Assembly: GCF_963921235.1 (NCBI RefSeq)
Contig: NC_086108.1
Span: forward strand, 93,560,001-93,624,000
DNA from: Mobula hypostoma
Taxonomy: Eukaryota
Direction of reading: 5' to 3'
Length of the DNA: 64,000 bases
Shown here: one piece after another, positions 22,871 to 52,972 of the stretch
Layout of the letters: each line of letters begins with the position of its first letter
Numbering within the stretch: position 1 is the first letter of the stretch
The notes under the pieces: generated by a model
What the model saw: only the letters and a program-made list of their open reading frames with translations
The model's database searches: none
What the model was told of the DNA's origin: nothing
Program-made: the position numbers and the translations under genes

Positions 22871-24900
22871 GTGGTGCACCTGTGCTGATGGTGATTGCTG
22901 TGAAAATGTTGCCAATCCAAACTGACTGGAGTCAGTAGGTGAGGAAATCGAGGATTCAGTTGCAGAAGGAGGTATTGAGGCCTCGGTCTTGCAGCTTACT
23001 ATTAGTTTTGAGGGGAGGATAGTATTGAATGCCAAGCTGTAGACAATAAAGAGCATCCTGATGTTTGTATCTTCGCTGTTCAAAGGTTCCAGAGTTGAGT
23101 GAAATGCCTGTGGAATGGCATCTGCTGTTGAGCTTTTGTGACAGTAGGCAAATTGGAGTGGATCCAGGTCAGTCTTCAGACAGGAATTGAATGTTTCATC
23201 ACCGGCCTCTCCAAGCACCTCATCACAGTAGACATCAATGCTACTGGATGATAGACATTGAGGAAACTAACCATGTTCTCCTTAGGCACCGGAAGAATTG
23301 AAACCTGCTTGAAGCAGGTTGGTACCTCGGACTGTTGAAGCAAGAGGATAAAGACATCAGTGAACACTCCTGCCATTGGATCAGAAACACAAGAGATTCT
23401 GCAGATGCTGGAAATCCAGAGCAACACAGACAAAATATTGCAGGAACTCAGCAGGTCAGGCAGCATTTATGGAAATGAGTAAGTAGTCGACGTTTCATGC
23501 CAAGTCCTTTCATCAGGACTGGAAAGGAAGGGGGAAGATGCAGAATAAAAGGTAGGGGAAGGGGAAGGAATACAAACTAGAATGTGATAGGTGAAACCAG
23601 GGAAGGGGGCTGAAGTAAGAAGCTGGGAGGCAATAGGTGGAAAAGCTAAAGGTTTAGAGAAATTGGAATCTGATAGGAGAGCAGAGTGGACCATGGGAGA
23701 AAGGGAACACGGAGGGGCACCGGGGGAGGTGTTAAGCAAGTGAGAAGAAGTGGGGTGTGGGCAGAGTGGGGAAATGAAGAGGGATGAGGGAGGTGGAAAC
23801 AATTCTGGAAGTTGGTGAAATCAATGTTCATGCCATCAGGTTGGAGGCTACTCAAACTGTATAAGAGGTGTTGTTCCTCCAACCTGAGAGTGGCTTCATC
23901 GTGGACATGTCAGAATAGGAATGGGGACTGGAATTGAATGGTTGCTTTTTGCAGATGGGGTGAAGATGCTCGATAAAGTGGTCCCCCAGTCTATGTTGGG
24001 ACTCACCAATGTAGAGGAGGCTGCTTTAGGAGCACCTGATACAGTAGATGACCACAATAGATTTATAGGTGAAGTGTTGGCACACCTGGAAATACTGTTT
24101 TGGGTCCCTGAATGGAACTGAGGGCAGAAGTGAATGGGCAGGTGTAACTCTTCTGCCATTTGAGGGATAAGTGCCAGGAGGGAGGTTAGTGGGGAGGGAC
24201 AAATGGACTAGGGAAGAGAGCCATCACAAAGGGAGCAATCCCTGCAGAAAGCAGAGCCAGTTGATCAGCTCAGGTGTTTAGTACATGGCCAGGTTCCCTG
24301 TCTGGACCCAATGCTTTCCATGGGTTTACCACCCCCACCCCCGAAAGAAATTCTCATGTTAGCCTCGGAAGCTGAAATCACAGGATCATTGGGGGCTGTG
24401 GGAGTTTGTGAAGGGTGCCTCCGTGTTTTGATGGTCAAAACGAGCATAAAAGGCATTGAGCTCATCTGAGAGTAAAACCTACTTGGTCACTTGGTTTCAC
24501 TTTGTAGGAGGTGATGGCACTCAAGCTCTGCCCCAGCCGTCGAGCATCCTTCAACGACTCGAGTTTGGTGCAGAATCGTCATTTCACATGTCAGATGGCT
24601 TTCCTGAGGTCGTGCTGGACCTTTTGTATTTTATTTTGGTACCAGGCCAGAACAGCACTGATTTGGCCCTCAGCAGGTTGCCGGTCTCTGGGTTCATCCA
24701 GGGCTTCTGTTTGGGGAAGACTGTGACGGATTTTGTGGACACACACTCATCTGCAGTTGTTTTTATGAAGTCCATGACAGCTGTGGCCTTTTCGTTCAGA
24801 TCCTCTGATGAGTCCTTGAACTCATTTGAAGCAATGGTGTGGCCACTCTACCGATTTAAAGCAATCCTGTAGCCACTCCTCTGCCTCCTGTGACCATCTG
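22870..24900 (-). mobile_element. Degenerate Rex1, interrupted by a Penelope-like element
   Basis: ORFs 22850-23218 (LDPLQFAY...RMLFIVYS.AFNTI) and 24584-24775 (VFPKQKPWMN). Confidence 0.8.
23385..24255 (-). mobile_element. Penelope-like element 3' part (GIY-YIG remnant plus pLTR with hammerhead motif at 23485-23520)
   Basis: EEQHLLYSLSSLQPDGMNIDF and LLYIGE remnants. Imperfect 13-bp TSD gccattggatcag (23372-23384) / gccagttgatcag (24256-24268). Confidence 0.85.
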
Positions 24901-25849
24901 TTTGTTGTCCTGTATCTTTGCAATCTTTAAAGCAACCATGATGGAATGGCGGAGCAGACTCGATGGGCTGAATGGCTTAATTCTGCTCCTGTGTCTTATG
25001 GTCTATGGTTTTGCATAACTGGATGCTACGTAGCTCTTCAAATACATGGGCAGCGGAATTTTGTGTCCACTGAGCTTACAGAGTAGTTAAAGGCAGGCCA
25101 GACAGAAGTGCAGTGGGATAATCAGAGATGATAAAGATGGGAGTTTCAACCACAGATGTTATGAGGTGAGTAGATTCCAGTAATATTGTGAAAGTGAAAA
25201 TATGTGCTCCATGTGATGGCCTATAAATCTGCACAAGTTTTGTTTAATCCAGAGCTTTTGCAGTTTAATTTCACTGATATGATTAAAAATACTAAAAATC
25301 CAAAAATTGAAAGATATTTTATGTGAACAGTAGCTAATTTTATTTGAATTTTTGGGCCACCTTACCAGTTCAATATACTTTTAAATTCTAATTCTACCAA
25401 CTTCTTGAACCAAACTATGTTAAGAAGCTTGTAGTGATATAGCCACCAATTAAGTATGAGTCAGTGAAGGAAAGCTATGTACAGGTCTTATAATAGAATC
25501 TGCCTTCGTATTTGTTACTCTGTCAATGCATGCATAGATACACAGTAATAATCTATCTACCAAAATCATGTCATGTTGTTGATACTGTGAGCTCAATTAT
25601 TAATTCAACAGTCCAATCTTTTAGTTAAAAGGAACGGCAAAATTAGATAGAAAATGCTAATGCAATTCTAAATATTAATTGTTTTATATTAACTATTTGG
25701 AGTTTTATGCAATTAAAATACAGAGCTCTTTAACAAACAGAGATTTATAATTTCAAAAGTTGATATGATTTTGGTAGTTAGCCTGTAAAGATCGTGCTTT
25801 TATCCAATTTGTTCTGTTACTCGGTCAGTGGAGGTTTTACTGAACTGCA

Positions 25850-26370
25850 TCTTGGACTAATTAATAATGACAGCCCTGCATATGATTTGCTGCATTTTAA
25901 TAAGGATGTCATCATATAGGGCCCTGAAATGTAGGTCATGTCTTAACAAATTCTCCTGTTAGTGAATTTACCTCATGATTTGTTTCAATTTTTTTTTATT
26001 CAGAACTTAGTTGAAGTGTAACTTGATAAAATTATTAAGTTCAACGAAGTCGACAGGAAAGACAATTCAACTTTAACCAGTTTTTCTTGCACAAATTCAG
26101 TTGCTCTATTTTGAGAAGGGGATTAAAACAAGCAGATTACACATGAGCTGTGTAGTTTGGCGCAGCACCATCATTAGGTCTCGTGTAGAAATGTATTCTC
26201 CAAAGAAGAGTTTGTTTCCCTTGGATATTTCCTCCAAATGTCATTTCTCTGTCTGAGGTAAGCTGCAGTATATGTTCTTCTGCCTTTGCTTTCAACAAAT
26301 AGTTATTTTGTACAGTGAGCCTTCTCCTCGGCATTCTTGTTAATCTGTTACAGGCTTTATTGCTGAACCT
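25850..26370 (+). promoter_or_regulatory. Candidate photoreceptor promoter of ABCA4
   Basis: TE-poor island containing CTAATTAA (25857), a consensus RORE AATGTAGGTCA (25928-25938), K50/CRX-type GGATTA (26120-26125), AGATTA (26134-26139) and TAATCT (26341), and an AT-preceded TGCTGA (26361-26366, Maf/NRL half site). Function is inferred. Confidence 0.45.
26190..26257 (+). other. ABCA4: Candidate non-coding first exon of ABCA4 (5' boundary unknown)
   Basis: Strong donor GAG|GTAAGC at 26257/26258. The last ~20 nt resemble my recollection of the human ABCA4 5'UTR, and the ATG exon has an upstream acceptor. Confidence 0.5.
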
Positions 26371-27039
26371 TGATCATTATTGTGCTAGTCATGCTTAACA
26401 ACATTTGGAATGTAAGAATTATAGTGTTCGTACACTTGGAAAAGAAGCCATTTTAGTTCTTGATTGAGTGAGGAAATGGATGAAATTTGTTTAAGCAGAT
26501 GATAACACTCTAGGTTAAATAAGTAATGTCATGGAAGGTAGTTCTACATTCTAGTAATAAACTTGTATGTATTTGGCCTAACAAATGCATCAGGTACTTG
26601 GCCATATCAACAGCTGAGCATTCCTGAACAGATTGGTAAGCAAACATCACCCACAATGTCGATGCCTATAAAATCATCACAGCATGTTCAAACTTATAGG
26701 GTTACCTATTTTTACTTTAAAGTTGCTCAGTACAATGTAACTTAAAATTTCCAGAAAAGAGTATTTTATATGATCTAAGTAAATGAGCAAATAGCAAATC
26801 TTCATTATCTGAAGTACTTCTGATGTAGCAATGAATATCCCAAAATATACTTTTTTTGCCTTTCAATAATTTGGTATGAGTAAATAATCTACAGATCTCT
26901 TGACCACCATGTTGGTTGCAATTTTGTTCACTGAAGAAGAAACGATTTTGCTTTATCAGTTTGCCTGTATACGTGGCTGAATTTTGAAAAGTTTATGGAG
27001 TAGCATACAGTATAGCAAAGTCCTAGACACAATATGATT

Positions 27040-27500
27040 GTCTTACATGGCTTTATTATTGTCACATGTACCGAGATAAAAAACTGCTTCACATGACCTC
27101 ATACAGATCATTTCATCACATCCGAGCATAGAAGTTGTACAAGGTAAAACAGTAATAGAATGTAGGATGACATGTTACAGTTGCAGAGAAAGCATAGTGT
27201 AGCCAATAATAAGGTGCAAGGCCATAATGAAGTAGATTGTGAGGTCAAGAATCTATCTTATCCTCCGAAGGGACTATTCTATAGACTTATTACAGTGGGA
27301 TAGAAATTGTCCTTGAACCTGGTGGTATGTGCTTTCTGGCTTTTGTTACCTTCTGCTTGATGAGTGGGGTGGGGGAGGAAGAAGAAAGAATATCTGGAGT
27401 AGGTGGTGTCTTTGATTCTGCAGGCTACTTTGCCGAGGCAGCAAAAAGTACAGGAAGAGTCCATGGAGAGGAGGCAGCTGTACTGAGGCAGCGAGAAGTT
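27040..27500 (-). mobile_element. Rex1-type 3' end, degenerate
   Basis: ORF 27279-27554 ending TTRFKDNFYPTVISL; polyA signal (TTTATT on +) near 27052. Confidence 0.65.
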
Positions 27501-28326
27501 CAATGTCGCCTGGCCACCTTGAGGTATTAGTAATTTCCTCTCAGGATCTAACATTAGTCAGTCCACATTTCCAGATCCGTCAGCAAATTAAAATCCTTTC
27601 TTACTAATTGGATTAAGTATTATCATAGAGCAGGGACAAAATGCTAATGCTTCAGTTTTATGAATATGATGGTTGGACGTGTGCAAGGACGAGAGCATGC
27701 ACGCTGGATTTGTTGATCCAGTTCAATTCTGAACCAGTTAATGGGATTTAGATTATGGAATATAAAATAACAAAAGGTTGTAATGTAAGATATTAGTAAC
27801 TAATTTTGTGAAATTTGTATTCTTTGTAGTAGATGTGCAAGAAATATTAGAACAGATAATACAATTAAATAATAAAATATGAAACTTGGATAATGAACTG
27901 ATTTTAATTAATTTTATTATTACAATGGAAAAAAAGAACTGGAACTGTTGCCTTTAGAGCAAAGAAATACTTTTTCAAGATTCAAGCTTCAAAGATTCAA
28001 AGTGCATTCATTATCAAAGTAGATATGTAGTATACAACTCTGAAATTCATCTTCCCTCAGACAGCCATGAAACAAGGAAAACTACTGAACCTGTTCAAAG
28101 AAAAACATTAACCCCCCCCACCACCCTACATATGCAAAAAATAACAAATTGCACAGACAATTTAAAAAACAAGTGAAAAACACAGAATATAAAACACAAA
28201 ATAAAAAGAGTCCAGGCATATTCAGTTCAGCTCAGTTCTGGTTCAATCTAGTGGATTTAACAACAACTTTGAAAATAAAAAGACATTTAAATAAAGTAAT
28301 TCATGTAAAGACATTTATATGAATTA

Positions 28327-29055
28327 TAGAACATTGAACATAGAATAGTACAGCACAATACAGGCCCTTCAGCCCACAATGTTGTGCCGACCCTTAAACC
28401 CTGCCTCCCATATAACCCCCCACCTTAAATTCCTCCATATACCTATCTAGTAGTCTCTTAAACTTCACTAGTGTATCTGCCTCCACCACTGACTCAGGCA
28501 GTGCATTCCATGCACCAACCACTCTCTGAGTAAAAAATCTTCCTCTAATATCCCCTTTGAGCTTCATACCCCTTACCTTAAAGCCATGTCCTCTTGTATT
28601 GAGCAGTGTTGCCCTGGGGAAGAGGCAACATTCTATCTTGTATACCTCTATTATGTCTCCTCTCATCCTCCTTCTCTCTAGAGAGTAAAGCCCTAGCTCC
28701 CTTAATCTCTGATCATAATGCATACTCTCTAAACCAGGTAGCATCCTGGTAGATCTCCTCTGTACCCTTTCCAATGCTTCCACATCCTTCCTATAGTGAG
28801 GTGACCAGAACTGGACACAGTACTCCAAGTGTGGCCTCTCCAGAGTTTTATAGATCTGCATCATTACCCCGCGACTCTTAAACTCTATCCCTTGACTTAT
28901 GAAAGCTAACACTCCATAAGCTTTCTTAACTACCCTATCCACCTGTGAGGCAAATTTTAGGGATCTGTGGACATGTACCCCCAGATCCCTCTGCTCCTCC
29001 ACACTACCAAGTATCCTGCCATTTACTTTGTACTCTGCCTTGGAGTTTGTCCTCA
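28327..29055 (-). mobile_element. Young 5'-truncated CR1
   Basis: Uninterrupted 220-aa ORF 28394-29056 (RDLGVHV...RPHLEYCVQFWSP...FFTQRVVGAWNALP) plus tail. Confidence 0.93.
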
Positions 29056-29494
29056 ATGTAGTTACATAGTGTAGAATTAAAACACAACAAAGTTTTGAAT
29101 TTTATCTGCTGAGTATTTCAAAAACTTTAGAGTCGTGACTTATCAAAATCAAAACGAATCTATGACTGCAAGGTTCAAGAAATACTCAACAGATGAGGCA
29201 GCATCTATGAAGAGAGAAATAGTAAAGTTTCAGGTCAATGATTTTGGTTAGAACAGCCTTTTCGCTAGGTTATCTGGGATTGTTGAAGAATGGTAGGAAA
29301 AAAACAGTAAAGTGACTTCTTGCTGGTTAACATCAATGGAGACCCAAAAACTGTCTCCTCTAGTTTCTCTGCGTCTTTCTTCTAACTTTGGTGAAAATAA
29401 AATATCGTAAGATGTAATACAATCTGCTAAATCATTTTCAATGGTTTTACAATTTTGCACAAGGCCAACATTACACTGCAGATTTTAGAGCATG

Positions 29495-29900
29495 TCACTC
29501 TCATCGTTTGTTCATTTGTTATGTGCCATGTTGTATGACGTGCACGATCATGGTCTTTCTGTGACCATGATTCACCTTGGCAAACTTTTCTACAGCTGCA
29601 GTTTGCCATTACCTTCTTCTGGGCAGTGTCTTTACAAGACGGGTGACCCAGCCATTGTCAATACTCTTCAGAGACTGTCTGACTGGCGTCAGTGGTCGCA
29701 TAACCAGGACCCATGATTTGCACCAACTGCTCATACGACCATCCATCACCTGCTCGCATGGCTTCACGTAACCATGATCGGGGAGCTAATCAGGTGCTAC
29801 ACCTTGCCCAAGGGTGACCTGTAGGCTAGTGGAGGGAGGAGATGCCTTACAGCTCCTTTGGTAGAGAAGGAATGCCTGACAGCTCCACCTCACCACCCAT
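29495..29900 (-). mobile_element. Non-autonomous RTE-derived (bipartite) SINE-like element
   Basis: Reverse-complement match to 37561-37953; GTAGCACCTG and GAAGAAGGYAATGGCAAAC motifs. Confidence 0.75.
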
Positions 29901-30452
29901 TGACAATGACATTTTCTTGGATAGAGTCCTAGAATCTTAGAGTTATGGAGTCCTTCGGCTCAACATGTGATCAAGTTGCTTACCTGAGCTGGTCCCTTCT
30001 CTCTGCATTTGACCCATATCTCTTTAGGCCTTTTCTATCCATGTCCCTCTCTACATGGCCTTTAAACATTATTGTTGTACTTGCTTTTATCACTTCCTGT
30101 GGCAGCTTGTTCCACATATCAACTCCCTTTGCATGGAAAAGCTTGATCCTTGGTTTCCCTTTAAAATTTTTCCCCTCTCACTTTAAATCCATGCCCTCTA
30201 GTGTTAGATTCCATTACTCTGGGAAAAAGACTGTGATCATCCACTTTAACTAAATTAAGGAATAATAATTTATTTATTTTATGATTTAATTTGAGATGAA
30301 CTCGAATGATTAAGCACAACATCTGCTTTCCTTCTAACCTCCTCTCCTTTGGGAATAGGCGTAATCATCTTCAGGCTCAGAACAGCCTGGCAGAATCAAA
30401 AGTGAAACAAAAATCACAATTTCACTAACTTAATTGAAATTATTGTATAGAC

Positions 30453-30645
30453 CAGGGGTGGCCAGCCTTTTACATTCCATGCATCAATTTTTTCACTCAG
30501 GAATTCAGATGTGCCATACTACTCTTGTACCCCCATTCAATTCTTGTAAAAATATGTTAATATAGAACTCGTGCATGAAAAAGTCGCATCTGAACTCGTG
30601 CATGAAAAAATTGACGCATGGAATGTAAAAGGTTGGCCACCCCTG
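30453..30645. mobile_element. hAT (Charlie-type) MITE, 193 bp
   Basis: ~43-bp TIRs CAGGGGTGGCCA.CCTTTTACATTCCATGC.TCAATTTTTTCA; perfect 8-bp TSD GTATAGAC at 30445-30452 and 30646-30653. Confidence 0.95.
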
Positions 30646-31272
30646 GTATAGACTAAAGGGACGACTTTAAAGGAGCTAGGCACAAAGTACTATGGAAAGG
30701 TGATTCCTCAGTGTAAGTAACTGAATTCATACATTTTGGATAATGAAAAGAGCATAGAATTAAATACTGAAATGACAACTTGCTTTTCATTGAAAGAGTG
30801 CTCAGGGTTTGAATCTGAATATATGCAGATCTTTAAAATTTTACAACACAAGAACGATGAAAGTTGAGAATGAATCATTGTGTTCAAAGATTTAAATAGA
30901 TCAGGGATGACCCAAAACTGGAAGTTTATTCCTATTGATAACAGAAGTTTATGAATTCAGTATAATTTTAGAAATAGAAAGGCAGAAGTTATGTTCCTTA
31001 ATGTAGAACTATTGCATTATGTGATTATGCAAAGAGATCCCCATCATATTTCAAAGGAATTCAGAAGAAAATTTTGAAAATATCAAATGATAAAAGAAGA
31101 GGAGGATTGAGAGATTAATATTCCTGACTTTAAGATGCTAAGGAAGGGGAAATACCAGGGGCTGGTATGTTTATTAAGAAGTCTTTTATAACACTGGAGA
31201 ATGAAACTGAAATTATCAAAGACAGAACGCATTTGGTTAGAACGAAACAACAAGAAAGGAGTTAATATTACT

Positions 31273-32462
31273 AATCTGCTAAAATAAAAATCTGCTCTCA
31301 GGATTAGGCTTTTCATTCCAGGACGAGGGAGATGTCCTCCTTTTTTAAAGAAAGGGGCTTCCCTACCTCCACTATCAACTCTGCTCTCAAACGCATCTCC
31401 CCCATTTCACGTACATCTGCTCTCACTCCATCCTCCCGCCACCCCACTAGGAACAGGGTTCCCCTGGTCCTCACCTACCACCCCACCAGCCTCCGGGTCC
31501 AACATATTATTCTCCGTAACTTCCGCCACCTCCAACGGGATCCCACCGCTAAGCACATCTTTCCCTCCCCGCCCCCTGCTTTCTGCAGGGATCGCTCCCT
31601 ACACGACTCCCTTGTCCATTCGTCTCCCCCATCCCTCCCCAATGATCTCCCTCTTGGCACTTATCCGTGTAAGCGGAACAAGTGCTACACGTGCCCTTAC
31701 ACTTCCTCCCTCACCACCATTCAGGGCCCCAGACAGTCAGGTCGGCTGGGGTGATATTCTGCGTCCAGTGCTCCCGATGTGGCCTTCTATATATTGGCGA
31801 GACCCGACACAGACTGGGAGACCGCTTTGCTGAACACCTACGCTCTGTCTGCCAGAGAAAGCAGGATCTCCCAGTGGCCATACATTTTAATTCCACATCC
31901 CATTCCCATTCTGACATGTCTATCCACGGCCTCCTCTACTGTAAAGATGAAGCCACACTCAGGTTGGAGGAACAACACCTTATATTCCGTCTGGGTAGCC
32001 TCCAACCTGATGGCATGAACATCGACTTTTCTACCTTCCGCTAATGCCCCACCTCCCCCTCGTACCCCATCTGTTATTTATTTTTATACACACATTCTTT
32101 CCCTCTCTCTCTCCTTTTTGTCCCTCTGACTATACCCCTTGCCCATCCTCTGGTTTCCCCCTCTCCCTTTCTCCTTGGACCTCCTGTCCCATGATCCTCT
32201 CATATCCCCTTTGCCTATCACCTGTCCAGCTCTTGGCTCTATCCCTCCCCCTCCTGTCTTCTCCTATCATTTTGGATCTCCCCCTCCCCCTCCCACTTTC
32301 ACATCTCTTACTAACTCTTCCTTCAGTTAGTCCTGACGAAGGGTCTCAGCCTGAAACGTCGACTGTACCTCTTCCTAGAGATGCTGCCTGGCCTGCTGCG
32401 TTCACCAGCAACTTTGATGTGTGTTGCTTGAATTTCCAGCATCTGCAGAACTCCTGTTGTTT
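31273..32462 (+). mobile_element. 5'-truncated Penelope-like element (Neptune-type) with GIY-YIG endonuclease, inserted in an ancient CR1 endonuclease region
   Basis: ORF 31332-31754 (FKERGFP...RVPLVLTYHP...PCKRNKCYTCPY Cys linker) and 31682-32044 (VIFCVQCSRCGLLYIGET...RFAEH...EQHLI...QPDGMN). Perfect 14-bp TSD GAGTTAATATTACT at 31259-31272 and 32463-32476. Confidence 0.93.
32329..32364 (+). ncRNA. Minimal type I hammerhead ribozyme motif in the Penelope pLTR
   Basis: AGUC-CUGACGA-A-GGGU(CUCA)GCCU-GAA-ACGU-C^GACU: stem I AGUC/GACU, intact core, palindromic ACGU helix III, predicted GUC cleavage after 32360. Confidence 0.75.
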
Positions 32463-34605
32463 GAGTTAATATTACTGTTGTGTATATACGTTAGACCACC
32501 AACTGATGGAAATGCAATAGAAAAGCAAATTTGTTGACAAATTCCAAAATAGCTACTGGAAAATAGTTATTTCATAAACTTTTGAACTTCAGGATGAGCG
32601 AAGTATATTTCCAAAAGAGCTATGTTGTTTAACAATGAATAACATCATGAGATTCAGAACACTCACGGAGTAAAGGTTCAATTAATAGTTATCTCTTTAG
32701 TTAGATGAAAAGGGAGATATCCTGGCACATATAGATTTTTTAAAATGAATAGCAAGAAGACAATGACCAATATCCCATATCTCAGGAGCAACTTCCTGGC
32801 AAAGACAGACATTAATTATGAAAATCACCACTGCTTTCAATGTGCTATGACTGCCTTTGGTTGATTGGGAAAACGAATATTTGAAGATCAAGACCTCAAA
32901 TTTGGCACAAAGCTCAGAATCTGTTGGGCAACTGTTATCCCCTTCCTTCTATAAATCTTTAGGTGCTTGGCCAAAATACACATGCTATTCTGAGCTCTGT
33001 CATCAGAAGTCATTGCCAGGTTAACAAAGGAAAAGGTTCCAGGACGGGCTCCAAGCCAGCCTGAAGGAATGCAACATCTGCACTCATTCTTAATGATATC
33101 CAGCCCATGACAGAGGAAGGGGAATTCAGGATGGCACTGAGAGACTCGAGACATATTGGGAACACGTGGTAGGTCTGCGTTAGTAGCAGAAGGAGTAGAC
33201 GACCTCACAACCTATCCTTTCAGCTGCCCCCTCGACCACAACCTGCTCCCTCTTATAGAAGAGACTGTGGCTCCCACATTGACCTAGTTAGCCACCTCAG
33301 AATCACAAAACTAGAGTGGACACAAATCACCTTAATCATTCTTTATGAAGAGTAAACGGTGAGCGGGCAGGTTCAGGTACAATTCAGACGTGGGTCCATG
33401 ATAAGGACCAAACCTCTCAATGCAATAGGTTTCTGGATGAGCAAGTAAAAGGATGTTTATGGCAGGTACGTCCTTTTATTTAAGAGTAGAGACCCAGGTC
33501 GAATGTTGCAAGTACATAGAAATTGAAAATGGGATTGAATGGGAGACCAAAAGATAATCTTATCAAGATATATCAAATCACAAAGGGCACAGATAATGTG
33601 AATGCACACAGTGTTTTCCCCCATGTAAAGGGCATCAGAAACCTATGGTATAGGATGGCAGGGGAAAGATTTTAAGACGGATATAAGCAGCAACCTCTTC
33701 TTGCAGAAGGTGGTGCATATAGAGAACAAGCTAATCAGTGAAACTGGTTGAGGATGTGCCATAACACATTTAAAAGGCATTTGGTGAGATAAGTGGATGA
33801 AGAAGTAGATGGCCACATGGATGATAGAAACAAATGGAGGGCTACGTAGGAGGGAAGGGTTAGATTGATCTTAGAGTAGGCTAAAAGGTCGACACAATGT
33901 TGTGGGCCAAAGGGCCTGTACTATGCTGTAATGTTCTATGTTTGAGGGACACAGGCCAAATGCGACTAGCTTAGATAGGTCTGCATGGATGAGTTGGGCT
34001 AACAGGCCTGCTTCTGTGCTGTGTTGCCCTGTAGATCTATGACTCCATAACATACTTCCAGTTCTCCTTAGAGATGAGAGTGATGCCAGCGGAGGACTGG
34101 AGAACTGCATTCTCATTTAAAATAAACCCAGCAACTACAGGCCACTCAGCTAGATGTCAGTGGAAAAGAAATTTATAAAGTCAATTTATGAGAAAAATAT
34201 TAATGCAGTTTTGATAAATATTAGCTAGAAAATGAAAGACAGCTTGTATTTATTAAAAGCTAATTTGATCAAATTCATTGATAAAATAATAAACCAGACC
34301 AATGGAAATGCTGTTACTGGCATGGCCGTGAACTTTCAAAAGGCATTTAGAAATATACCATGTATTCAATGTGCAAACAGATTTCGATTACAGGGACTCT
34401 GGCGGCAGAGACACAAATCTGTCTGAAGGGCAGAAAATGGTGAGCAGTTGCCATTCAGTCACAGGGAACTGTACAGTGATGTCTCCAAGACTCAGTACTG
34501 GGCTCTTTTTCATCTGTTTAATGACTTTGGGACTGAAGTATAGAAAGCATGTTACGAATGTTTACATTAAGACAATAAAATTCTCAAAAAAAAATCAGGA
34601 TTCAA

Positions 34606-34920
34606 AGTCCCTGAAGAAGGGTCTCAGTCTGAAACATCAACTGTTTATTAATTTCCATAGATGCTACCTGACCTGCTGAGTTCCTCCAGCATTTGTGTAC
34701 GTTGCTTTGGATTTCCAGCAACCGCAGACGTTCTCATGTATATCATTTGATGCTCCACTGCAAAGTCTCTTCGAGGAATGCCTACCCTGAAGAACTTTAA
34801 ATCTTCTCTTCAGTCCTGAAGAAGGGTCTCAGCCTGAAACGTCAACTGTTTACTCATTTCCATAGATGCTGCCTGACCTGCTGAGTTCCTCCAGCATTTT
34901 GTGTGTGTTGCTTTGGATTT
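34606..34920 (+). mobile_element. Tandem pair of Penelope pLTR units, each with a hammerhead-like core
   Basis: CTGAAGA...GAAAC at 34611-34635 and 34816-34840 (205-nt spacing), each followed by the same ~80-nt pLTR body. Confidence 0.75.
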
Positions 34921-35504
34921 GCAGGAAATGGATTAGTAAAACACTCAGACTAACTCAGGTGAGATTTAACAGAGTACTCTGAAGTCATATGTTTTTGTAG
35001 GAATTATAAGGAAAAGCAAAATGAAATAATGCAAGTTTCACACGAATGCTGATTCAGGAAGTGTTTTTACACAGATATTTGATGTTGAAATGTCACTTAA
35101 GTGTATATGAAACCATTGGCTTTGTTAATGGGAATGGAGAAGTAAAGCCAAGATGCGTCCATATGGCTTTACGGCATTGAAGGAGGTTATTTGGTCTATC
35201 AAACCCAGGCCACTCTCATTTTCTCCACTAATTTTCCATGTAATCTATTCTCCCTACATTCCCATCAAATACGGCACCCTTCCCCTACCTCCAAGGTCCC
35301 ATCACTTAATTGTACACTAGTAGCAATTAAATCATCAATCAGCTTGTTTTTGTGACATGGGCAGTTGTTGGAACACCCAGAGGAAACCCACACAATCACA
35401 GGACACACAGAAGGCACTGAATGTGAGAACTGAACCTGATTTATTGACACACTGAAACGAAAGTCCTACTGATCACCCCACTTCCGCAATCTGCTGGCTA
35501 TGAT

Positions 35505-36012
35505 GCTAAGTGATGTAACCTGTGGTCATCGGGTGACTGGGGTCTTTCAACATCGTCCACTCTCACTCAGGCGACCCGGCCAGGGTTGATTAGGCCCTGG
35601 CTTGTGTCCCAGCAGCACTGGTCCACAGGTCACACCTCTCGATCCACAGCCATCTCGAGACTCACTCAGCAGCCTATGTGACGGTCCTGGTGGCTCTTTT
35701 CTTTGCAGCCCCCATACATCCCACCTCTATAGGCTCGCACCATGTCCTGCACCTCTGCCTCTGGCTCTGCTCCCACCAGCTCCTGCTATTTGGCTTTCTT
35801 ACATTCAAACTCCTCCTTAAACCATCATCCTAAGGAACTGTCAGCTCTACTATGACCACCTGATTCGAGGTTTCTGACAGAATGGCCGTGTCATACCTTA
35901 GTGATGAAGATGCGGTGAAGTCAAGGAACTTTAATTGCTCACCCAGATCAACGTTCAGTTGCCAGTCAGACGCCGAGGCAGGCAAACCCGTTAAAATGGC
36001 TGTTCTGTCCAA
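35505..36012 (-). mobile_element. Relic of an RLE-type non-LTR retrotransposon (Hero-like) 3' end
   Basis: ORF 35830-36012 DWQLNVDLGEQLKF...SLRYDTAILSETSNQVVIVELTVP (decayed RPD...ELTVPW nuclease motif), followed by EPIEVGC and SRWLWI remnants. Confidence 0.75.
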
Positions 36013-37049
36013 CCATTATAGAACATTGGCTAAAGCTTAACTAAGGTATAGTGGCCATGTCTGAGTTAAAAAGTCAGATTTAGGTAGAAATAAGTAAGTA
36101 TTTATAGTGGCAAAAGGAATGTTAACCAAGGAACACAGATTTAAAGAGGGAGGCACAAGAGATGTTGAATGGTGGAATCGGAAACAAAATGAAACCTGCT
36201 TGGGGAACTCAGCAAGTCATGTAGCAGCTGTGGATAGAAAGAGATAATTGACGTTTTGGATTGACTTCCTACATCAGGACCGAATGGAGCTTGAAGCCTC
36301 ATGGGACAAAACGGTGGGAAACACAAGTATTGAAGGAGGACATTTGGCGATAGTAATGAGTCCTGATAGTAGTGAGTAGCAGGTCTCGAACCAAAATGTC
36401 AAACTATCCCTTTGCCTTCACCGATTTAAAGATGATTGTAAGTTACAAACAGAGGTGTACCAGTGTTGTTATAATCAGGAGTGTGGTGCCTGAGGGAGAG
36501 CAGTGGAACTGAATCGAAAGCAAGTTTCAAGAAAGGAAGGAAACAATTGAAGGCTTTGAGGAAATGGCAGAATGGTGGGTCCAACTGAACAACCCTATCC
36601 ATGTTGAGCTAAACACCGATTCATGTGTTGCATTTTATGAGCCCATAATAATGATTAAAAACAGGTGATCTGGGTGGCCCTAATGTGATCCTGTTCTTAC
36701 ACAGATGCTGTAGCCTCCTTTCCCATTCGGATTTCTATGATTCTGTGCAAGAGAGGGCGGTCTACAGATCTCACTGCTTGAGAGATCGTTGTCACTGGTG
36801 CTCCAAGCAAGGGCTCAGGTCTGATGTAACGTGTTTCTACACGACACTTCCCTTGCATAAAGGAGGAGCATTGTTCTTTCTTGGTTATTTAACCGTCTGT
36901 TTCATCCTTTCTTCTTCCCGAATGATGTTTGGGACTTGATATTAAGTGCTTCTGCAGGGAGACATTATAGCCCTCCTGCTCATCACACAGTGGGATAATT
37001 GTCATCAAACAATGAATTCTGTGACTATTGTACGATTGGAGCACATGTC

Positions 37050-37396
37050 CTTCAAGAGGACCACAACCTTGTCATAGGGTTTGGAAGTTTGAATTCTTCA
37101 ATGACCCGGAGAGCTATGTTGGCTGGAGTCAGAGCCTTGTCCTTTGGCTCTTCGTAGGGTCATCCATGCCAAACAGGTCAAAGGGTAGAGGCCAGACTAT
37201 GAGTGGTCCACCGGTCCTCCAGGTTTGGGGGTTCAGCTCAGGGCTAACAGCCCTGACTGCTCAACAAAAAAATGGTTACAGAAACAGCAATGAAGAATCC
37301 ACCTACATCTGTGTGTGAAGGTAAGGACAGACAGAGACGGAGGACCTTCATTGCTGCCCTAAATGCCAGCAGTATAATAGGAAGCAAGTAAGTAAG
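37050..37396 (+). mobile_element. Non-autonomous RTE/Expander-like element (5'UTR joined to 3' end), (AAGT)n tail
   Basis: gagagctatgttggctgg...tagggtcatccatgccaaacaggtc; 3' ggaggaccttcattgctgcccta. Second copy at 48937-49197. Confidence 0.7.
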
Positions 37397-37560
37397 GAGC
37401 AGGTGTCAACTGTAAATTACTGTCACTGTAAATCGATTTTACCCTTTTTCTCCAGGCGGTCTAACTATTGGCAACAAACAAGATGTTGGAGGAACTTGGC
37501 ACATCAGGCCGAGCTGCTCCAGCATCTGCTGCCTTTTATATCTCACTGGTCTAACTATCT

Positions 37561-37953
37561 GGGTGGCGTGGTGGAAACAGGTCCCTACCAGCGGAGGTGT
37601 AAAACGCTCCTTTGATCCACCAGCCTGCAGGTGACCCTTGAGCAAGGTGTAGCACCTGCTTATCCCCTCCACCCCCCGCACTGATCAGGGTCACGTGAAA
37701 CCATGGGAGCGGGTGGTGGATGGTCGTATGAGCAGTTGGTGCTTATCATAGGTGCTGGTTATGCAACCACTGATGCCAGGCAGACAATATCTGAAGAGTA
37801 TTGATAATGGCTGCATAACCTGTCTTGTAAAGTCACTGCCCAGAAGAAGGCAATGACAAACCACTCTGTAGGAAAATTTGCCAAGAACGATCATGGTCAT
37901 GGATAGACTATGATCTCCCATGCCATGCGATATGGCACATAACGATGATGATG
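37561..37953 (+). mobile_element. Non-autonomous RTE-derived SINE-like element, (GAT)n tail
   Basis: Three copies in the window; shares motifs with the RTE 5'UTR at 14019-14254 and its tail type. Confidence 0.75.
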
Positions 37954-38297
37954 GTCTAATTATTATACTCTTAATCTGCAGAATTCACAATTTTGAAAAT
38001 GGAAGGCGGGTTGACCAGCCTCTGTAAAGGGCTGGTTTGAATATTTCCAGTGCGTACCCTTAATCAAAACCAAGAAACCATTCTGTTTGGTTTGGATGAA
38101 GAATACACTTCTGAAATGTTTACCTTGTCTTTTTACTTCACCTACTTTGACCAACCCTTTGTGAACTTCCATCACTATCTGATTTTACTTCCTGGTTTTC
38201 ATTGGCTTTTAATCATAACATCGTTACCAAATTCAGCCATCGCTGACTACCCGAAGGTTTTGGGACTATCCTGGTTTGAGTAGCTCAGCTAATCATT

Positions 38298-38734
38298 AAC
38301 ACAAGAGATTCTGCTGATGCTGGGAACCCAGGGGAACACACACAAAATGCTGGGGGATCTCCACTGGTCAGGCACCATCAACGGAGGGGAATAAACAGTT
38401 GACGTTTCGAGCTCAGAGCCTCATCAGGGCTGGAAAGGAAGGCAGAAGAAGCCAGAATAAGAACTTGGGGGAGAGGAAAGGGTACACCTTTTCCACTTAT
38501 CACCTCCCAGCTACTGACTTCATCACCCCCCACCCCCCCCCCCACCACCGCTCCATCTACCTTCTTGCTCAGCTAGGTTCACCTTTCACCTCGTTTGTAC
38601 TCTGCTGCCCCACACCTTCTTATTTTGGTCTTCATCACCCTTCCTTTCCAGTCTGATGAAGGGTCTTACCCCCTCCAAAGATGCTGCCTGGCCTGCAGAG
38701 ATCCCCCAGCATTTTGTGTGTGTTATTCTGGCCT
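38298..38734. mobile_element. Penelope pLTR remnant with inverted arms, ~150 bp upstream of the ABCA4 ATG-exon acceptor
   Basis: Minus arm 38298-~38480 and plus arm ~38490-38730; TSD agctaatcaYt at 38287-38297 and 38735-38745. Confidence 0.75.
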
Positions 38735-38926
38735 AGCTAATCACTGGTTTTACAAACTGAGCTATTCTGAAGAAGCTGGAGAACTCTGAGTCAGGCACCA
38801 TCATCTCCTGAATTGTTGTTCCTTCCTGTTTTTAAAAATAAATTCAATTGTCTAATGTCAAGGCATTGCTGTTTATATTTTAGAAGTGCATATGCTAAAT
38901 TACTGTAGTGAGAGAGGGGCAGAAGA

Positions 38927-38992
38927 ATGAGCTCCTCCAATCAAATCACTCTCCTGCTGTGGAAGAACTGGACTCTCAGGAAGAGACAAAAG
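38927..38992 (+). CDS. ABCA4: ABCA4 first coding exon (MSSSNQITLLLWKNWTLRKRQK)
   Basis: LLLWKNWTLRKRQK matches the ABCA4 N-terminus; 66 coding nt; donor AAG|GTCAGT. Confidence 0.97.
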
Positions 38993-39239
38993 GTCAGTGA
39001 GTGAACAAAGCCAACAGTCTGCATTCGTTCCCACACCAATGAACAGTAGAAAGGAAATAGCACAGGGAGACTATTAATATGGGATCAAATGTTATGTAAA
39101 CAAGTTCAGGGACTGAGGGAGCAGATTTTCACCAAGTTCAGGTTTACTCTTTTTACTCCAGTGCCTGGTGCTCTCAGTAGACATGGACTTCCTTCCATGG
39201 GAATATGGGTAAGCTGGCTTTTGTGACCAATTCGGTTAT

Positions 39240-39535
39240 AATTATTTACAGATACAGCGCAGATCAGGTCCTTCTTGTCAGGGAGGCACACCACCCAGAA
39301 ACCCACTGATTTAACCCACAAGCTTAATCATAGAACAACTTACAAATGAGCGATTAACCCTACTAACCGGTGCGCCTTAGGCATGTGAGAGAAAACTAGA
39401 GTTCCCAGAAGAAGCCCACGTGCACACGGGAAGAACCTAAAATCTTTCTTACAGAGGATGCCGGAATTGAGCTCTGAACTCTGAATCCCTGAGCTGTAAT
39501 AGTGTCACCCTAACCACTACGTTGCCGTGGCGCCC
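39240..39535 (-). mobile_element. tRNA-headed V-type SINE (HE1-like), degenerate
   Basis: On the minus strand: ggcaacgtagtggttag A-box-like head, V-domain-like ttcttcccgtgtgcacgtggg, CR1-like tail. Related copies near 35170-35480, 48060-48360 and 56190-56425. Confidence 0.65.
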
Positions 39536-39744
39536 ACATGGTAGTTCAGTTCTGGAATTACAGCAAATGGCTTCTATTCAATTCCATGGTAGATGTCCAT
39601 TGTCAATGACAGAATTTGACATTGCTCCACTATCAGGTTATCCACTGCTAGGATACAAAAGTTGTTTTGTTTAGCAGTGACATTTCTTCTGTACACTGGA
39701 CCGGAGATGGCAGATGTAATGCAAATGTTCACACCGTTTATGAG

Positions 39745-40080
39745 GGACATGGATAGGGCAAATGCAAGCAGGCTTTTTCCACTGTTGGGTGAGATTGCAA
39801 CTAGAGATCATAGGTTAAGAGTGAAAGGTGAATTATTTAAGCGGAATCCTAGGGGGAGCTTCTTCCATCAGAGGGTGGTGCAAGTGTGGAATGAGCTGCC
39901 AGTGGAAGTGGTGGATTCAGCATCTATTACAAAGTTTAAGAGAAATTTGGATAAATAGACGGATGGGAGGGGTATGAAGATGTATGGTCCAGGTGAGGTT
40001 TGATGGGACTAGAATAACAGCTTGGCATGGACTAGATGGGCCAAAGGGCCTGTTCTGTGCTGTAGTGCTCAATGACTCTG
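39745..40080 (+). mobile_element. CR1 3' end
   Basis: RLFP...TRDHRLRVKG...FFHQRVVQVWNELP. Confidence 0.85.
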
Positions 40081-40399
40081 TCCGAGGTTTCCTCTGATTC
40101 TGCAAGCCAAAATGAATATACCTAAGACTAAGAAAAAATTAAAGTCAAAAGAAAATAAAATAAGAATTTTAATTAGGTATTTAGACATAGGATGACCTGT
40201 AGACTAGTCACCTAATATAAGATCAGTTAAGATGAGGTTTTGGTGTGTTTATATGTATGGTTAATGGTGCCTTTGCATGGTGATTAAGTTTCTAGTCTTC
40301 TGTCTGGAGACGCGGTCTACAAATACAGCATAACTAATTCAAATCCCACCATGACAGTCGGGAATTTAAATTCTGGGAAATAAATACATCTAAAAATAT

Positions 40400-40860
40400 C
40401 AAATCAAGTCAAGCTTATTGTCATTTAACTATACATATATACCATCAAATGAGATAATGTTTCTCCAAACTGCACTGTAGCATACATAACACATAATAAC
40501 TTATGAAAGTAAGGATGAAATCTACAGATGGATTAAAACAGATAAACAAACTAAAGTGCATGAATTAAATATTGAAGGGTACAGAACAGATTAACCAGCT
40601 GCACTTTGAATGCAATGCGGCAGGGAGTTCAGAAGCCTAATGGCCTGGGGGAAGAAACTGTTTCCCACCCTGACCGTTCTTGTCTTTATGCATCAGACTC
40701 TCCTGTCTGATGGTAGAAAGTCAAAGAGGATGCTGGATGGATGGTTGGGATCCTTAATAATATTAAGGACCCTGCATACGCAGCGCTCATAACTGTCCCC
40801 GAAGTATGGTTGGGAGACCCCTGTGATCCTCTCAGCTGTTTTCACAGTCCTTTGTAAATG
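40400..40860 (-). mobile_element. Rex1 3' end
   Basis: KHLQRTVKTAERITG...IIKDPNHPS..LFDFLPS.RR. Confidence 0.8.
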
Positions 40861-42001
40861 CTTGCATTGGCAATGGTAACCTTGAAATGATCGGATTAAC
40901 ATTTTTAAAAAAACCTTATTTATCAAGGTCTCACAGGGAAGAAAATATGCTGCCTTCCCAATTACTTGACTCTCAACTGAGAAGTCCTATTAATGGGCAC
41001 CTTACTCAGATTTTCAAGAAAAAAGAACGGACATATTTTCATCTGAGTTGCTGAGTTTTTAGTCTTTCTGATGATCAAAGTTACTGATATGTATAATCCT
41101 TGAGCTGTCATTTACTCGAGGAGTTAGCTGTTTGTTGAGTCATTTCTGTTGCATTAGCACCGTGTGCACAGTCTTGCTGTCGATGGTGTGTCATATCCAA
41201 TCAATCTTGAAGATAGCTCTAATATAGAAGTGAAACGCCTTAATGAAGAGACATGCACAAATTGGGTAATTCATGAACCACAGCATATCATTAACATGGT
41301 GTTCAGAGTCAGAATCAATTTAATATCACAGCCATATGTTGTGAAATTTCTTGTTATGAGGCAGCAGTAATTTCAATGCATAATAATAACTGTAAATTAG
41401 TGAAATATAGTCACAGTCATGCCTTCTTTGTAACTTGTAACTGCATCAATACGTGGGTCCCGGTGAGATCCTCAGAGATGTTGACTCCCAGGAAATTGAA
41501 ATTGCTCACCCTTTTTAATTCTGATCCCTCAATGAGGACCGTTGTTGCCAGAAATTAAGACAGAGGAGCATTTTAATAATAGCAACTAAGGTGGACAGGA
41601 GAATAAAGGAAAAGGATACATGTCAACTACTTAGACAGATAAATGGCTCATTTGGTAAACCATCTATTACTACTTTTAAACTGTCTGAGCTTGGCAAGAA
41701 CAATACTGCAGCCAGTGCAAAAGTTTATTTTAGGTCTATTAAGACAAGGAATAGTTTATTCCCAATCCTTTATCTAGAGTTTGTCATTACTCAAAGACAA
41801 CATTGTTGACTTTTTTTCCTTCTAGATATCATAGTTGAATCATTTGTCCTTCTATCCCAGCTCCCAGTAAACATGAACAATCTGCTTATTGGTTCTGAAA
41901 TACACATGCTCAACTTGTACAGTGGGGTTTTAGGGTTGTGAATCCATTGCAGCATCTGAGGGGAGGTTTTGAGTTTCTCCAAACAGACATTATACGTGAT
42001 G

Positions 42002-42537
42002 CAGTACTATGCAGAAGTCTAAGGCACATATATATAGCTAAGCTGCTTGAGACTTTTGCATGGTACTGTAGTAATTTTATGTATTGCACAGTACTGCTGC
42101 CACAGAAAAAAACAAATTTCATGATGTACAAGAGTGATGATAAACCTGATTCTGATATGGGTCTCTACTGTGGACTGAGAGTGGGAATGGAGCAGGGAGA
42201 GGGGAATTGTGGTTGGGAAAAGGAGAAGAGAGAGAGGGAAGCACCAGAGAGACATTCTGTAATGCTCCATAAAGCAATTGTTTTGAACCAAATGACCTTG
42301 CCTGGTGTCTCAGGGCTGTGTGTGTCTGCACTTACACCACATTCACTCCCACCCCGACCCTGGCGCTCCTTCTCTCCCACAGACTTCCTGCGGTGCTCCA
42401 CCCTTACCATCCCCAACACCCTTTGTTCCCGTCAGATTTAGAAACTCTCTGCTCCACTTTGACAAATACAGTACTGTGCAAAAGTCTTAGGCACCCTAGC
42501 TATATATATGTGTGTCTAAAACTTTTGCACAGAACTG
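42002..42537. mobile_element. Composite non-autonomous element bounded by two inverted ~68-bp Tc1-type mini-MITEs
   Basis: 42002-42068 and 42469-42537 each fit CAGTACTGTGCAAAAGTCTTAGGCA...TGCCTAAGACTTTTGCACAGTACTG with a few mismatches; their spacers are in opposite orientation. Confidence 0.75.
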
Positions 42538-42747
42538 TGCAGTCATCCTGTACACTGATAAAAGTGCACAACAGTGGTTAATGAAATGACGACATTTATA
42601 GAGTCATACAGAACGGGAACAGGCCTTTAACCCAAATGGCCAATGCTGACAAAACTGTTATCCAAGCTTGTCCCACTTGCAGCCTTTGACCCAACTCCTT
42701 CCAAACCTTTCCTCTCCAGTTAACTGTACAACTGTCTTCTAAAGGTA

Positions 42748-43190
42748 ACACACACACAATGCCTGAGGAACTCAGCAGGCCAGGCAAGTTCTATGGAAAA
42801 GAGTAAGCAGTCAAAGTTTTGGGCCGAGTCTCTTCATCAAGACTGAAGAAAAGGATGAGAATTCGGAGTAAGAGGTGGGGAGAAGGGAGGAAAATGTACA
42901 AGGTGGTAGGTGATAGGGGAAACTGGGAGGGGTGCAGTAAAGAGCTGGGAAGTTGATTTGTGAAAGAGATAAAGGGCTGGAGAGGGGGGAATCTGATAGG
43001 GGAGGGTAGAAGACCATGGAAGAACGGGAAGGAAGAGGAGGCCCAGAGGGAGATGATGGGCAGGTAAGGAGATAGGGTGAGAGAGTGAAACAAGAATGGG
43101 GAATGGTAAAGGAGAAGGGGAAAACAATTACTGGAAGTTTGAGATGTCGATGTTCATATCATCAGGTTGGAGGCTACCCAAACAGGATTG
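42748..43190 (-). mobile_element. Penelope-like 3' end
   Basis: LGSLQPDDMNIDI remnant, pyrimidine-rich UTR, decayed hammerhead motif, pLTR body. Confidence 0.8.
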
Positions 43191-43502: not shown

Positions 43503-43596
43503 CTTCGCTTCCTGGTGGAACTTGTTTGGCCTCTCTCTCTTTTCCTTGTTTTGGTTTGGCTGCGGAAATCAAATCCTCTCTACCAGCAACATGAAT
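43503..43596 (+). CDS. ABCA4: ABCA4 coding exon 2 ([33 protein letters not shown]1)
   Basis: 94 nt, CAG| and |GTGAGT, phase 0/1; matches ABCA4 residues 23-53. Confidence 0.97.
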
Positions 43597-44126: not shown

Positions 44127-44268
44127 GCCATTTTCCCAATAAAGCAATGCCCTCTGCGGGAATGTTACCATGGTTACAGGGAATTTTCTGTAATCTCAAC
44201 AACCCCTGCTTCCAGTACCCTACTGATGGAGAATCTCCTGGTGTGGTTTCAAACTACAGAAATTCCAT
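44127..44268 (+). CDS. ABCA4: ABCA4 coding exon 3 ([47 protein letters not shown])
   Basis: 142 nt, TTTAG| and |GTAAGT; conserved C54, C75 and C81. Confidence 0.98.
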
Positions 44269-49288: not shown

Positions 49289-49428
49289 ACTTGCACGTAT
49301 ATATGCGGATGCTCAGGAGCTGCTGTTTAATAAACCTGAAATTCATAAGCTGCGCATAATCTGGGATGACATTGGCTTTCTATCTGACTTCATGGATATA
49401 CTCAGAACCAATCCCAGGAGAGTTGCAG
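49289..49428 (+). CDS. ABCA4: ABCA4 coding exon 4 (ILARIYADAQELLFNKPEIHKLRIIWDDIGFLSDFMDILRTNPRRVA)
   Basis: 140 nt, TTCTAG| acceptor; in-frame joining to exon 5 requires the non-canonical donor CAG|GCAAGG. Confidence 0.93.
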
Positions 49429-49689
49429 GCAAGGAGTTATGCATTTATACATAAATAATATTTCAAGAACTCAGACTATAAAACAATAAGGCATAGGAGC
49501 TGAAAAGGCCATCTGGCCCATCGAGTCTGCTCTGCCATTCGCTCATGGCTGATTTATTATCCCCCTCTATCCCATTCTTCTGCATTCTCCCTGTAACCCT
49601 TTGATGCCCCGACGAATGAATCTCTGCTTTAAATATGCCCAATGACTGAAGTGAGGCCACAGATGTAATTTAGGACACATAACAATGTG

Positions 49690-52844: not shown

Positions 52845-52972
52845 GGACAGGTATTCGTATCAAAGACATTCTGAAGGAAGATGAAACCCTGACCTCATTT
52901 CTACTCAAAGAAATTGAGCTTTCAGACTCTGTTGTGCATCAGTTGATCAATGCCCAAGTGCGACCTGAGCAG
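52845..52972 (+). CDS. ABCA4: ABCA4 coding exon 5 ([43 protein letters not shown])
   Basis: 128 nt, TTTCAG| and |GTAAGT; matches ABCA4 residues 148-190. Confidence 0.97.

What the first reader, a model, noticed from the sequence alone, without database searches (positions are those of the whole stretch)
25850..38926. Candidate hidden non-coding first exon and photoreceptor promoter: ABCA4 may have a ~12.6 kb 5'UTR intron
Seen: the ATG exon is preceded by a branch-point-like CTAAT (38852-38856), a U-rich tract and TAG| (38883), leaving 43 nt before the ATG. About 12.6 kb upstream, a TE-poor island has a strong donor GAG|GTAAGC (26257) and clustered CRX-type, RORE and NRL-half-site motifs. Recalled, needs checking: the human ABCA4 5'UTR reads ...ATGTCCTTTGCTGTCTGAG followed by 43 nt then ATG, all in one exon. 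Here ATGTCATTTCTCTGTCTGAG ends exactly at the donor, and splicing would restore the same 43-nt spacing. Established: the paralogue ABCA1 has a non-coding exon 1. Inference: an ancestral 5'UTR intron retained in this lineage and lost in mammals.
Basis: partly seen in the sequence, partly recalled or inferred. Interest (0 to 1): 0.75.

Follow-up and report, generated by a model that had tools for sequence, protein, structure and literature searches.

The report
Non-coding first exon of ABCA4
The retina gene ABCA4 in this fish-like genome starts with a non-coding exon 12.6 kb upstream of its start codon, as zebrafish abca4b does, whereas human ABCA4 has no such intron, so the human lineage probably lost an old intron.

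Summary
The predicted splice is real. One contig from a probable RNA run of a close relative (X4, depth 357) joins 25902-26257 directly to 38884 and continues into coding exon 3. The other 3 of 4 runs did not cover the exon at the listed positions. The intron is 26258-38883 (12,626 nt, GT-AG).

The layout is not lineage-specific. Zebrafish abca4b is published with 51 exons and its ATG in exon 2, with an acceptor-like site 45 nt before the ATG. A teleost-like locus, L002, has one at 47 nt, a top-ranked GAG|GTAAG donor and the same GATTA-N9-GATTA pair. Human ABCA4 has one unspliced 103-nt leader. So an ancestral intron lost on the human line is likely.

Not shown: when it was lost ('mammals'), whether the loss was precise (the human 19-mer stays recalled; only a stop codon at c.-47 matches), the start site, and photoreceptor specificity. 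Single CRX, RORE and NRL motifs are not enriched. Spliced leaders are common. No earlier scan note covers this.

The parts
25010..27987 (.). Repeat-poor, AT-rich island holding the first exon; cleanest part about 25000-26940
   Evidence: No self-BLAST hit in the window. Contig depth 0-194 in bins 25000-26940, against up to 125,000 in repeat-rich bins of the intron.
25902..26257 (+). Non-coding first exon of ABCA4. The 3' end is exact; 25902 is only where the contig ends, not a mapped start site.
   Evidence: X4 record 17 covers 25902-26255 with 24 substitutions and 4 gap letters; X4 depth is 0 in 26294-26940.
26121..26139 (+). Paired GATTA-N9-GATTA (two K50 homeodomain, CRX/OTX-type cores), candidate core of the promoter
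   Evidence: Only copy in the window. Same pair and spacer in L002 at 6856-6838, 18 of 22 letters identical; 0 of 211 control tiles reach this. None of the 16 shown X4 substitutions falls in 26108-26141; 8 of 24 were not shown. Binding not tested.
25929..25938 (+). RORE-like motif; weak
   Evidence: 1 of 5 such matches in the window; 82 of 2000 shuffles reach it. Conservation in L002 not tested.
26258..38883 (+). 5'UTR intron, 12,626 nt, GTAAGC...TTTTAG, with many interspersed repeats
   Evidence: Record positions 1145|1144 of X4 record 17 are adjacent while mapping to 26255 and 38882; the AG at 26256-57 equals that at 38882-83, so the cut is 26257^38884. Length and ends.
38852..38883 (+). Branch-point-like CTAAT, T-rich tract and acceptor TAG
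   Evidence: The contig uses 38883, not the neighbouring AG at 38886. The branch point itself is inferred.
38884..38992 (+). First coding exon: 43 nt leader plus 66 nt coding (MSSSNQITLLLWKNWTLRKRQK)
   Evidence: Piece 38882-38990 of record 17, 3 substitutions.
38892..38930 (+). Out-of-frame 12-codon upstream ORF whose TGA overlaps the main ATG
   Evidence: Translation not tested.
43503..43596 (+). Coding exon 2 (94 nt)
   Evidence: Not listed as a piece, but the 96 unlisted record letters (940-1035) equal 94 plus the 2-letter AG shift.
44127..44268 (+). Coding exon 3 (142 nt)
   Evidence: Piece of record 17 with 1 substitution.
49289..49428 (+). Probable coding exon 4 (140 nt) ending in a GC donor
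   Evidence: Outside the stretch laid with reads.
52845..52972 (+). Coding exon 5 (128 nt), ABCA4 residues about 148-190

Best explanation
ABCA4 here is transcribed from a promoter in the repeat-poor island near 26 kb. A non-coding first exon ends at 26257 and is spliced over a 12.6-kb GT-AG intron to the ATG exon at 38884 (shown in a close relative). The paired GATTA sites at 26121-26139 most likely bind CRX/OTX2-type homeodomain factors and drive retinal expression, with the main start probably just downstream of them (inferred). An intron 43-47 nt before the ATG is shared with teleosts (annotated in zebrafish, predicted in L002), so it is probably ancestral. The human line lost it, most likely by fusing the old first exon to the ATG exon and keeping the promoter (inferred). 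The intron here is long because repeats accumulated: 12.6 kb against a predicted 1.2 kb in L002.
For:: one contig (depth 356.7) gives three listed pieces in exon order, with breakpoints at the GT-AG sites and zero X4 depth in the adjacent unique intron bin; zebrafish abca4b has 51 exons, with the ATG and part of the 5'UTR in exon 2; the printed zebrafish target has TTTTCCCAG then 45 nt to the ATG (my count; the acceptor is my inference); in L002 the donor at 6684 ranks first of 140 GT sites, the acceptor lies 47 nt before the ATG and opens with the same GTTTGT as zebrafish, and the GATTA pair lies 154 nt before the donor (118 nt in the window). 5 of 5000 shuffles of the 1,911-nt L002 upstream region hold that pair; human leader is one exon of 103 nt; a human stop codon starts at c.-47, where the window's spliced leader has TGA; the human ABCA4 promoter has the highest CRX-to-other-factor binding ratio of eight elements; paired K50 sites are widespread in mouse photoreceptor elements (spacing not checked against this pair).
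Against: Only 1 of 4 runs is informative. It is a relative (about 92-93% identical in the first exon), is RNA only by guess and by its splicing, and its tissue is unknown. The joint is read from table 8; it is not among the 15 printed rows of table 5 (922 hidden). The contig extends to 25902, so the motifs lie inside transcribed sequence in that contig. The free local alignment of island and L002 is not significant (10 of 100 shuffles), and the pair and tile tests were set up afterwards. In the same call an unrelated stretch (38754-38788 against L002 -1664..-1624) beat 100 of 100 shuffles though it does not fit the model. L002 splicing is only predicted, and an alternative acceptor lies 18 nt before its ATG. 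Of 19 human leader letters recoverable from variant tables, only 3 match the window's spliced leader in fixed register (hand comparison); none lies inside the recalled 19-mer. The window's clade was not tested, which affects the direction of change.
Confidence: 0.75

Rival explanations
1. The splice is real and old, but the human state arose by promoter turnover. The old first exon was abandoned and a new start was recruited from intron sequence next to the ATG exon, so the human leader is not homologous to 26200-26257.
For: Only 3 of 19 retrievable human leader letters match in register (against 1, 2). 5'UTRs evolve fast and their intron histories are hard to reconstruct (PMC3488318 passages). 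The human 19-mer was not retrieved.
Against: A human stop codon begins at c.-47, as in the spliced window leader (about a 3-in-64 coincidence).
Confidence: 0.25
2. The intron was gained in fish lineages, once or twice, and the unspliced human leader is ancestral.
For: No tetrapod or jawless outgroup was seen. The offsets differ (43, 45, 47 nt). If the window were a ray-finned fish, one gain would explain the data. The invertebrate-like L001 showed no similarity upstream of its ATG.
Against: In vertebrate orthologues losses are seen and gains rarely, at least in coding regions.
Confidence: 0.1
3. The upstream exon is one of several first exons, or belongs to a non-retinal transcript, and the main retinal start lies elsewhere, for example next to 38884 or upstream of 25902.
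For: Contigs drop minor variants and cannot show starts or tissue. The contig runs past the CRX-type pair. Single motifs are not enriched.
Against: The dominant path at depth 357 goes through the junction with no break at 38884. 38500-38730 is repeat-derived. The GATTA pair recurs before the L002 donor.
Confidence: 0.12
4. The contig is a processed pseudogene or an assembly chimera, not an mRNA.
Against: Depth 357 in exons against 0 in the neighbouring unique intron bin. Breaks fall on GT-AG. Coding exons carry only 3 of 109 and 1 of 142 substitutions with no gaps. Even a processed copy would record the same splice.
Confidence: 0.03

Closest known systems
Zebrafish abca4b (gene ID 555506; PMC12749496, passages and supplement read)
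   Same: Non-coding exon 1, ATG in exon 2, 66 coding nt followed by GT, and an acceptor-like AG 45 nt before the ATG.
   Different: Leader after the acceptor is 45 nt, not 43, with a different sequence. No upstream ATG in that stretch. Its exon 1, intron length and promoter were not seen.
Human ABCA4 ENST00000370225.4 / NM_000350.3 (PMC10771650, supplement rows read)
   Same: Orthologous coding exons. A stop codon at c.-47. CRX-rich promoter (bioRxiv 412361 passages).
   Different: One unspliced 103-nt 5'UTR exon. 3 of 19 retrievable leader letters match in register.
ABCA1 and ABCA7, paralogues with a non-coding exon 1 (recalled)
   Same: Leader exon separated from an ATG exon that carries the N-terminal LLLWKN motif (layout recalled). 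[quoted passage not shown]
   Different: Intron offset from the ATG not tested, so homology of these introns with the ABCA4 one is open.
Spliced 5'UTRs of retinal disease genes in general
   Same: 126 of 378 such human genes have only spliced 5'UTRs.
   Different: Here the feature differs between orthologues.

Membership tests
ABCA4 orthologue | Coding exons closest to ABCA4 rather than ABCA1 or ABCA3 | tested here: met
   Exon 5 hits only ABCA4 at E up to 1 (4 of 4 sequences, E 3e-13). Exon 1: ABCA4 E 1e-4, ABCA3 0.08, ABCA1 3.9.
ABCA4 orthologue | Full-length transporter and conserved neighbours | not testable with these tools
   No genome held; five coding exons located in the window.
Spliceosomal (U2-type) 5'UTR intron | GT-AG ends with donor consensus, pyrimidine tract and branch-like site | tested here: met
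Spliceosomal (U2-type) 5'UTR intron | Removed from the transcript | tested here: met
   X4 record 17, 1 of 4 runs, a close relative.
Spliceosomal (U2-type) 5'UTR intron | Upstream exon adds no in-frame coding sequence | tested here: met
   All 7 ATGs in 25902-26257 reach a stop before the main ATG.
CRX-dependent photoreceptor promoter | K50 homeodomain sites, often paired and conserved | tested here: inconclusive
   Single sites not enriched; the pair recurs in L002, but the tests were post hoc and the free alignment was not significant.
CRX-dependent photoreceptor promoter | Start site mapped next to the sites; retinal activity and CRX binding | not testable with these tools
   Only contigs were available; tissue of X4 unknown.
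Precise intron loss | Intron absent in one lineage and present at a matching position in at least two others | tested here: met
   Absent in human; present here and in zebrafish; offsets 43 and 45 nt, and 47 predicted for L002.
Precise intron loss | Both flanks alignable and fused without added or lost bases | tested here: inconclusive
   Stop codon at c.-47 matches; 3 of 19 other letters match; human sequence not retrieved.
Precise intron loss | Loss placed on the mammalian branch | not testable with these tools
   Pattern scans gave 2 loci in metagenome contigs and none in genome or viral contigs; no tetrapod locus.

The most novel reading that the evidence does not exclude
Human ABCA4 exon 1 is a base-precise fusion of an ancient leader exon and the ATG exon, made by loss of the gene's 5'-most intron. 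The paired GATTA-N9-GATTA element is a promoter core kept since the cartilaginous-bony fish split. The fish loci would then mark which bases of the human promoter and leader matter, giving a short list of positions to test for unsolved Stargardt disease alleles, and a clean case of 5' intron loss in a retina gene.
Probability: 0.45. Interest if true: 0.45.

Novelty: new member of a known kind. Interest (0 to 1): 0.3.

Why it matters
It fixes the 5' end of ABCA4 in this genome. Anyone cloning the DNA just upstream of the ATG as a promoter would take repeat-rich intron. It gives a datable intron difference in a major disease gene, in a region (5'UTR) that intron-evolution surveys mostly skip. 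The conserved paired homeodomain site is a concrete candidate for the functional core of the ABCA4 promoter, where non-coding disease variants are being sought. The kind of feature is common and already annotated in zebrafish, which limits the surprise.

Tried and rejected
No genome held, so no synteny or paralogue check.

Run search with exons 2-3 listed 16 runs, none on record as RNA. Four were laid. X1 (flagged probably DNA), X3 and X6 show zero depth at the listed positions 25966-26182 and are uninformative, not negative. X6 has low depth (11.6) somewhere in 25647-26293 that the printed tables do not place.

The human leader or promoter sequence was not found by a full-text search with a window 10-mer or in supplements of PMC1802077, PMC10092144 and PMC11100165. 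bioRxiv 412361 supplements are closed and may hold the promoter sequence.

Paper searches for a described ABCA4 5'UTR intron loss or tetrapod gene structure gave nothing relevant in the listings. The search for ABCA1 exon 1 gave two unrelated papers, and one paper was not held.

Exon pattern scans: no match in genome contigs or viral contigs. L001 shows no upstream similarity (96, 17 and 14 shuffles of 100, 100 and 30 reach the score).

Protein search with exon 4 to place the clade: 4 candidates, none significant; proteins over 2000 aa were not searched. No Rfam family in 24900-39100. The bacterial promoter scan is irrelevant to a vertebrate and was ignored.

Rejected: RORE and NRL half-sites as evidence for a promoter; a CpG-island or TATA promoter (CpG o/e 0.28, no TATAWA); an N-terminal extension from the upstream exon.
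Full report
What is in the sequence. The gene is ABCA4. The ATG exon matches human ABCA4 residues 5-22 better than ABCA3 or ABCA1, and the exon at 52845-52972 matches residues 148-191 at E 3e-13. Coding exons 2, 3 and probably 4 lie at 43503-43596, 44127-44268 and 49289-49428. The donor ranks 6th of about 2,050 upstream GT sites on an approximate matrix and sits in a stretch with no self-similarity in the window. The acceptor is unremarkable: 48 YAG sites among 837 AG sites score as well.

The RNA test. I searched for runs with exons 2-3 rather than with the candidate exon, so the choice of runs did not depend on the hypothesis. 16 runs were listed, none on record as RNA. I laid 4 of them, from 4 studies, on 25000-44400. 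In run X4, record 17 (1,494 nt, depth 356.7) maps in three listed pieces: 25902-26255 (record 1145-1494), 38882-38990 (1036-1144) and 44127-44268 (798-939). Record positions 1145 and 1144 are adjacent. Because 26256-57 and 38882-83 both read AG, this is the junction 26257^38884. The 96 unlisted letters between the second and third piece equal exon 2 (94 nt) plus the same shift. X4 has zero depth in the unique intron bin 26294-26940, which argues against genomic DNA.

Limits of the RNA test. X4 is a relative (24 substitutions and 4 gap letters over 354 nt in the first exon; 3 of 109 and 1 of 142 in coding exons). Its tissue is unknown. The joint is not among the 15 printed rows of the joint table (922 hidden). 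The other three runs have no depth at the listed first-exon positions and say nothing either way.

Is the exon non-coding? Yes: all 7 ATGs in 25902-26257 reach a stop before the main ATG. An eighth ATG at 38892 opens a 12-codon out-of-frame ORF that stops across the main start.

Other vertebrates. PMC12749496 (passages; supplement search and part 2) states that zebrafish abca4b has 51 exons and that its exon 2 holds 5'UTR and the ATG. Its printed target shows TTTTCCCAG followed by 45 nt to the ATG (my count and my reading of the acceptor). A pattern scan of metagenome contigs returned 2 loci. L002 is teleost-like by its similarity to that zebrafish exon. Its best donor of 140 GT sites is GAG|GTAAGG at 6684. 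An acceptor 47 nt before its ATG opens with the same GTTTGT as zebrafish, predicting a 1,215-nt intron; a second possible acceptor lies 18 nt before the ATG. L001 is invertebrate-like and shows no upstream similarity. For human, PMC10771650 (supplement rows; passages) lists one unspliced 103-nt 5'UTR exon with one existing upstream ORF. PMC1802077 (passages) confirms the annotated 5' end with a broad start.

The promoter claim. Taken singly, the CRX, RORE and NRL-type motifs are not enriched in 25850-26257 (219, 82 and 129 of 2000 shuffles; TGCTGA absent). The real signal is the pair GATTA-N9-GATTA at 26121-26139. It is unique in the window and recurs with the same spacer in L002, 154 nt before the donor (118 nt here), with 18 of 22 letters identical. 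5 of 5000 shuffles of the L002 upstream region contain the pair, and 0 of 211 window tiles match the 300 nt before the L002 donor this well. Both tests were designed after the match was seen. The unconstrained alignment score is reached by 10 of 100 shuffles, and one other comparison in that call (38754-38788) beat all 100 shuffles without fitting the model.

Context for the promoter. The human ABCA4 promoter is CRX-rich (bioRxiv 412361 passages; PMC11100165 passages), and paired K50 sites are widespread in mouse photoreceptor elements (PMC5335693 passages; spacing not compared). The X4 contig runs 5' to 25902, past these motifs. Either the start lies further upstream, or minor upstream starts lengthened the contig. 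The short human leader and the seven ATGs in the long version make a main start downstream of the pair more likely, but this is inference.

The evolutionary claim. The intron is present here and in zebrafish at a similar offset and absent in human, so loss on the human line is the simplest reading if the window is a cartilaginous fish. In vertebrate coding regions losses outnumber gains, though UTRs are more dynamic (PMC3488318 passages; PMC12357937 seen only as a listing with the abstract start).

Was the loss precise? One independent point agrees with it: a variant row places a human stop codon at cDNA 57, which is c.-47, and the window's spliced leader has TGA at c.-47. Against that, only 3 of 19 other human leader letters from variant tables match in fixed register (hand comparison); none of them lies inside the recalled stretch. 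I put precise loss at about 55% and promoter turnover at about 25%. 'Lost in mammals' is untested, since only human was checked. The ABCA1 comparison is recalled: PMC7915494 (passages) did not address it, and PMC10252461 (passages) only hints at the same layout for ABCA7. PMC7544654 (passages) notes that promoter and enhancer variants are among the candidates for missing disease alleles.

Novelty and verdict. A non-coding first exon in ABCA4 is already annotated in zebrafish, and 126 of 378 human retinal disease genes have spliced leaders. I found no paper in the held library describing loss of this intron or the conserved pair (listings; most subscription papers are not held). The finding is a new member of a known kind with a worthwhile but unfinished evolutionary and regulatory angle. 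Interest 0.3.

Noticed in passing
window 49289-49434: Probable coding exon 4 (140 nt) ends CAG|GCAAGG, a non-canonical GC donor. Not covered by the read laying.
   Followed up: partly
window 38892-38930; L002 32 nt before its ATG at 5421: Both loci have an out-of-frame upstream ORF (12 and 11 codons) whose TGA overlaps the main ATG. The zebrafish 45-nt stretch has no ATG, so it may be chance.
   Followed up: partly
window 1-925: AT-rich unique sequence with AATAAA near 918, resembling the 3' end of an upstream same-strand gene. ARHGAP29 lies upstream of human ABCA4; identity here untested.
   Followed up: no
window 38754-38788 vs L002 about 7085-7045 (minus strand): A 35-nt similarity that beat 100 of 100 shuffles (one of six comparisons) but is not collinear with the model: intron end here, upstream of the predicted promoter there. 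Probably chance.
   Followed up: no
L001 503-570 (minus strand): An invertebrate-like ABCA gene with the same 66-nt first coding exon and GT donor after ...RKRQK, suggesting that this coding intron position is very old.
   Followed up: no
window 28235-35351: Repeat fragments inside the 5'UTR intron attract very high contig depth (up to about 125,000 summed) in the laid runs; these are family-wide signals, not evidence of local transcription.
   Followed up: no
window 38884-38886: A second AG 3 nt after the acceptor (TAG|AAG) could allow a 3-nt shorter leader; the contig uses the first.
   Followed up: partly
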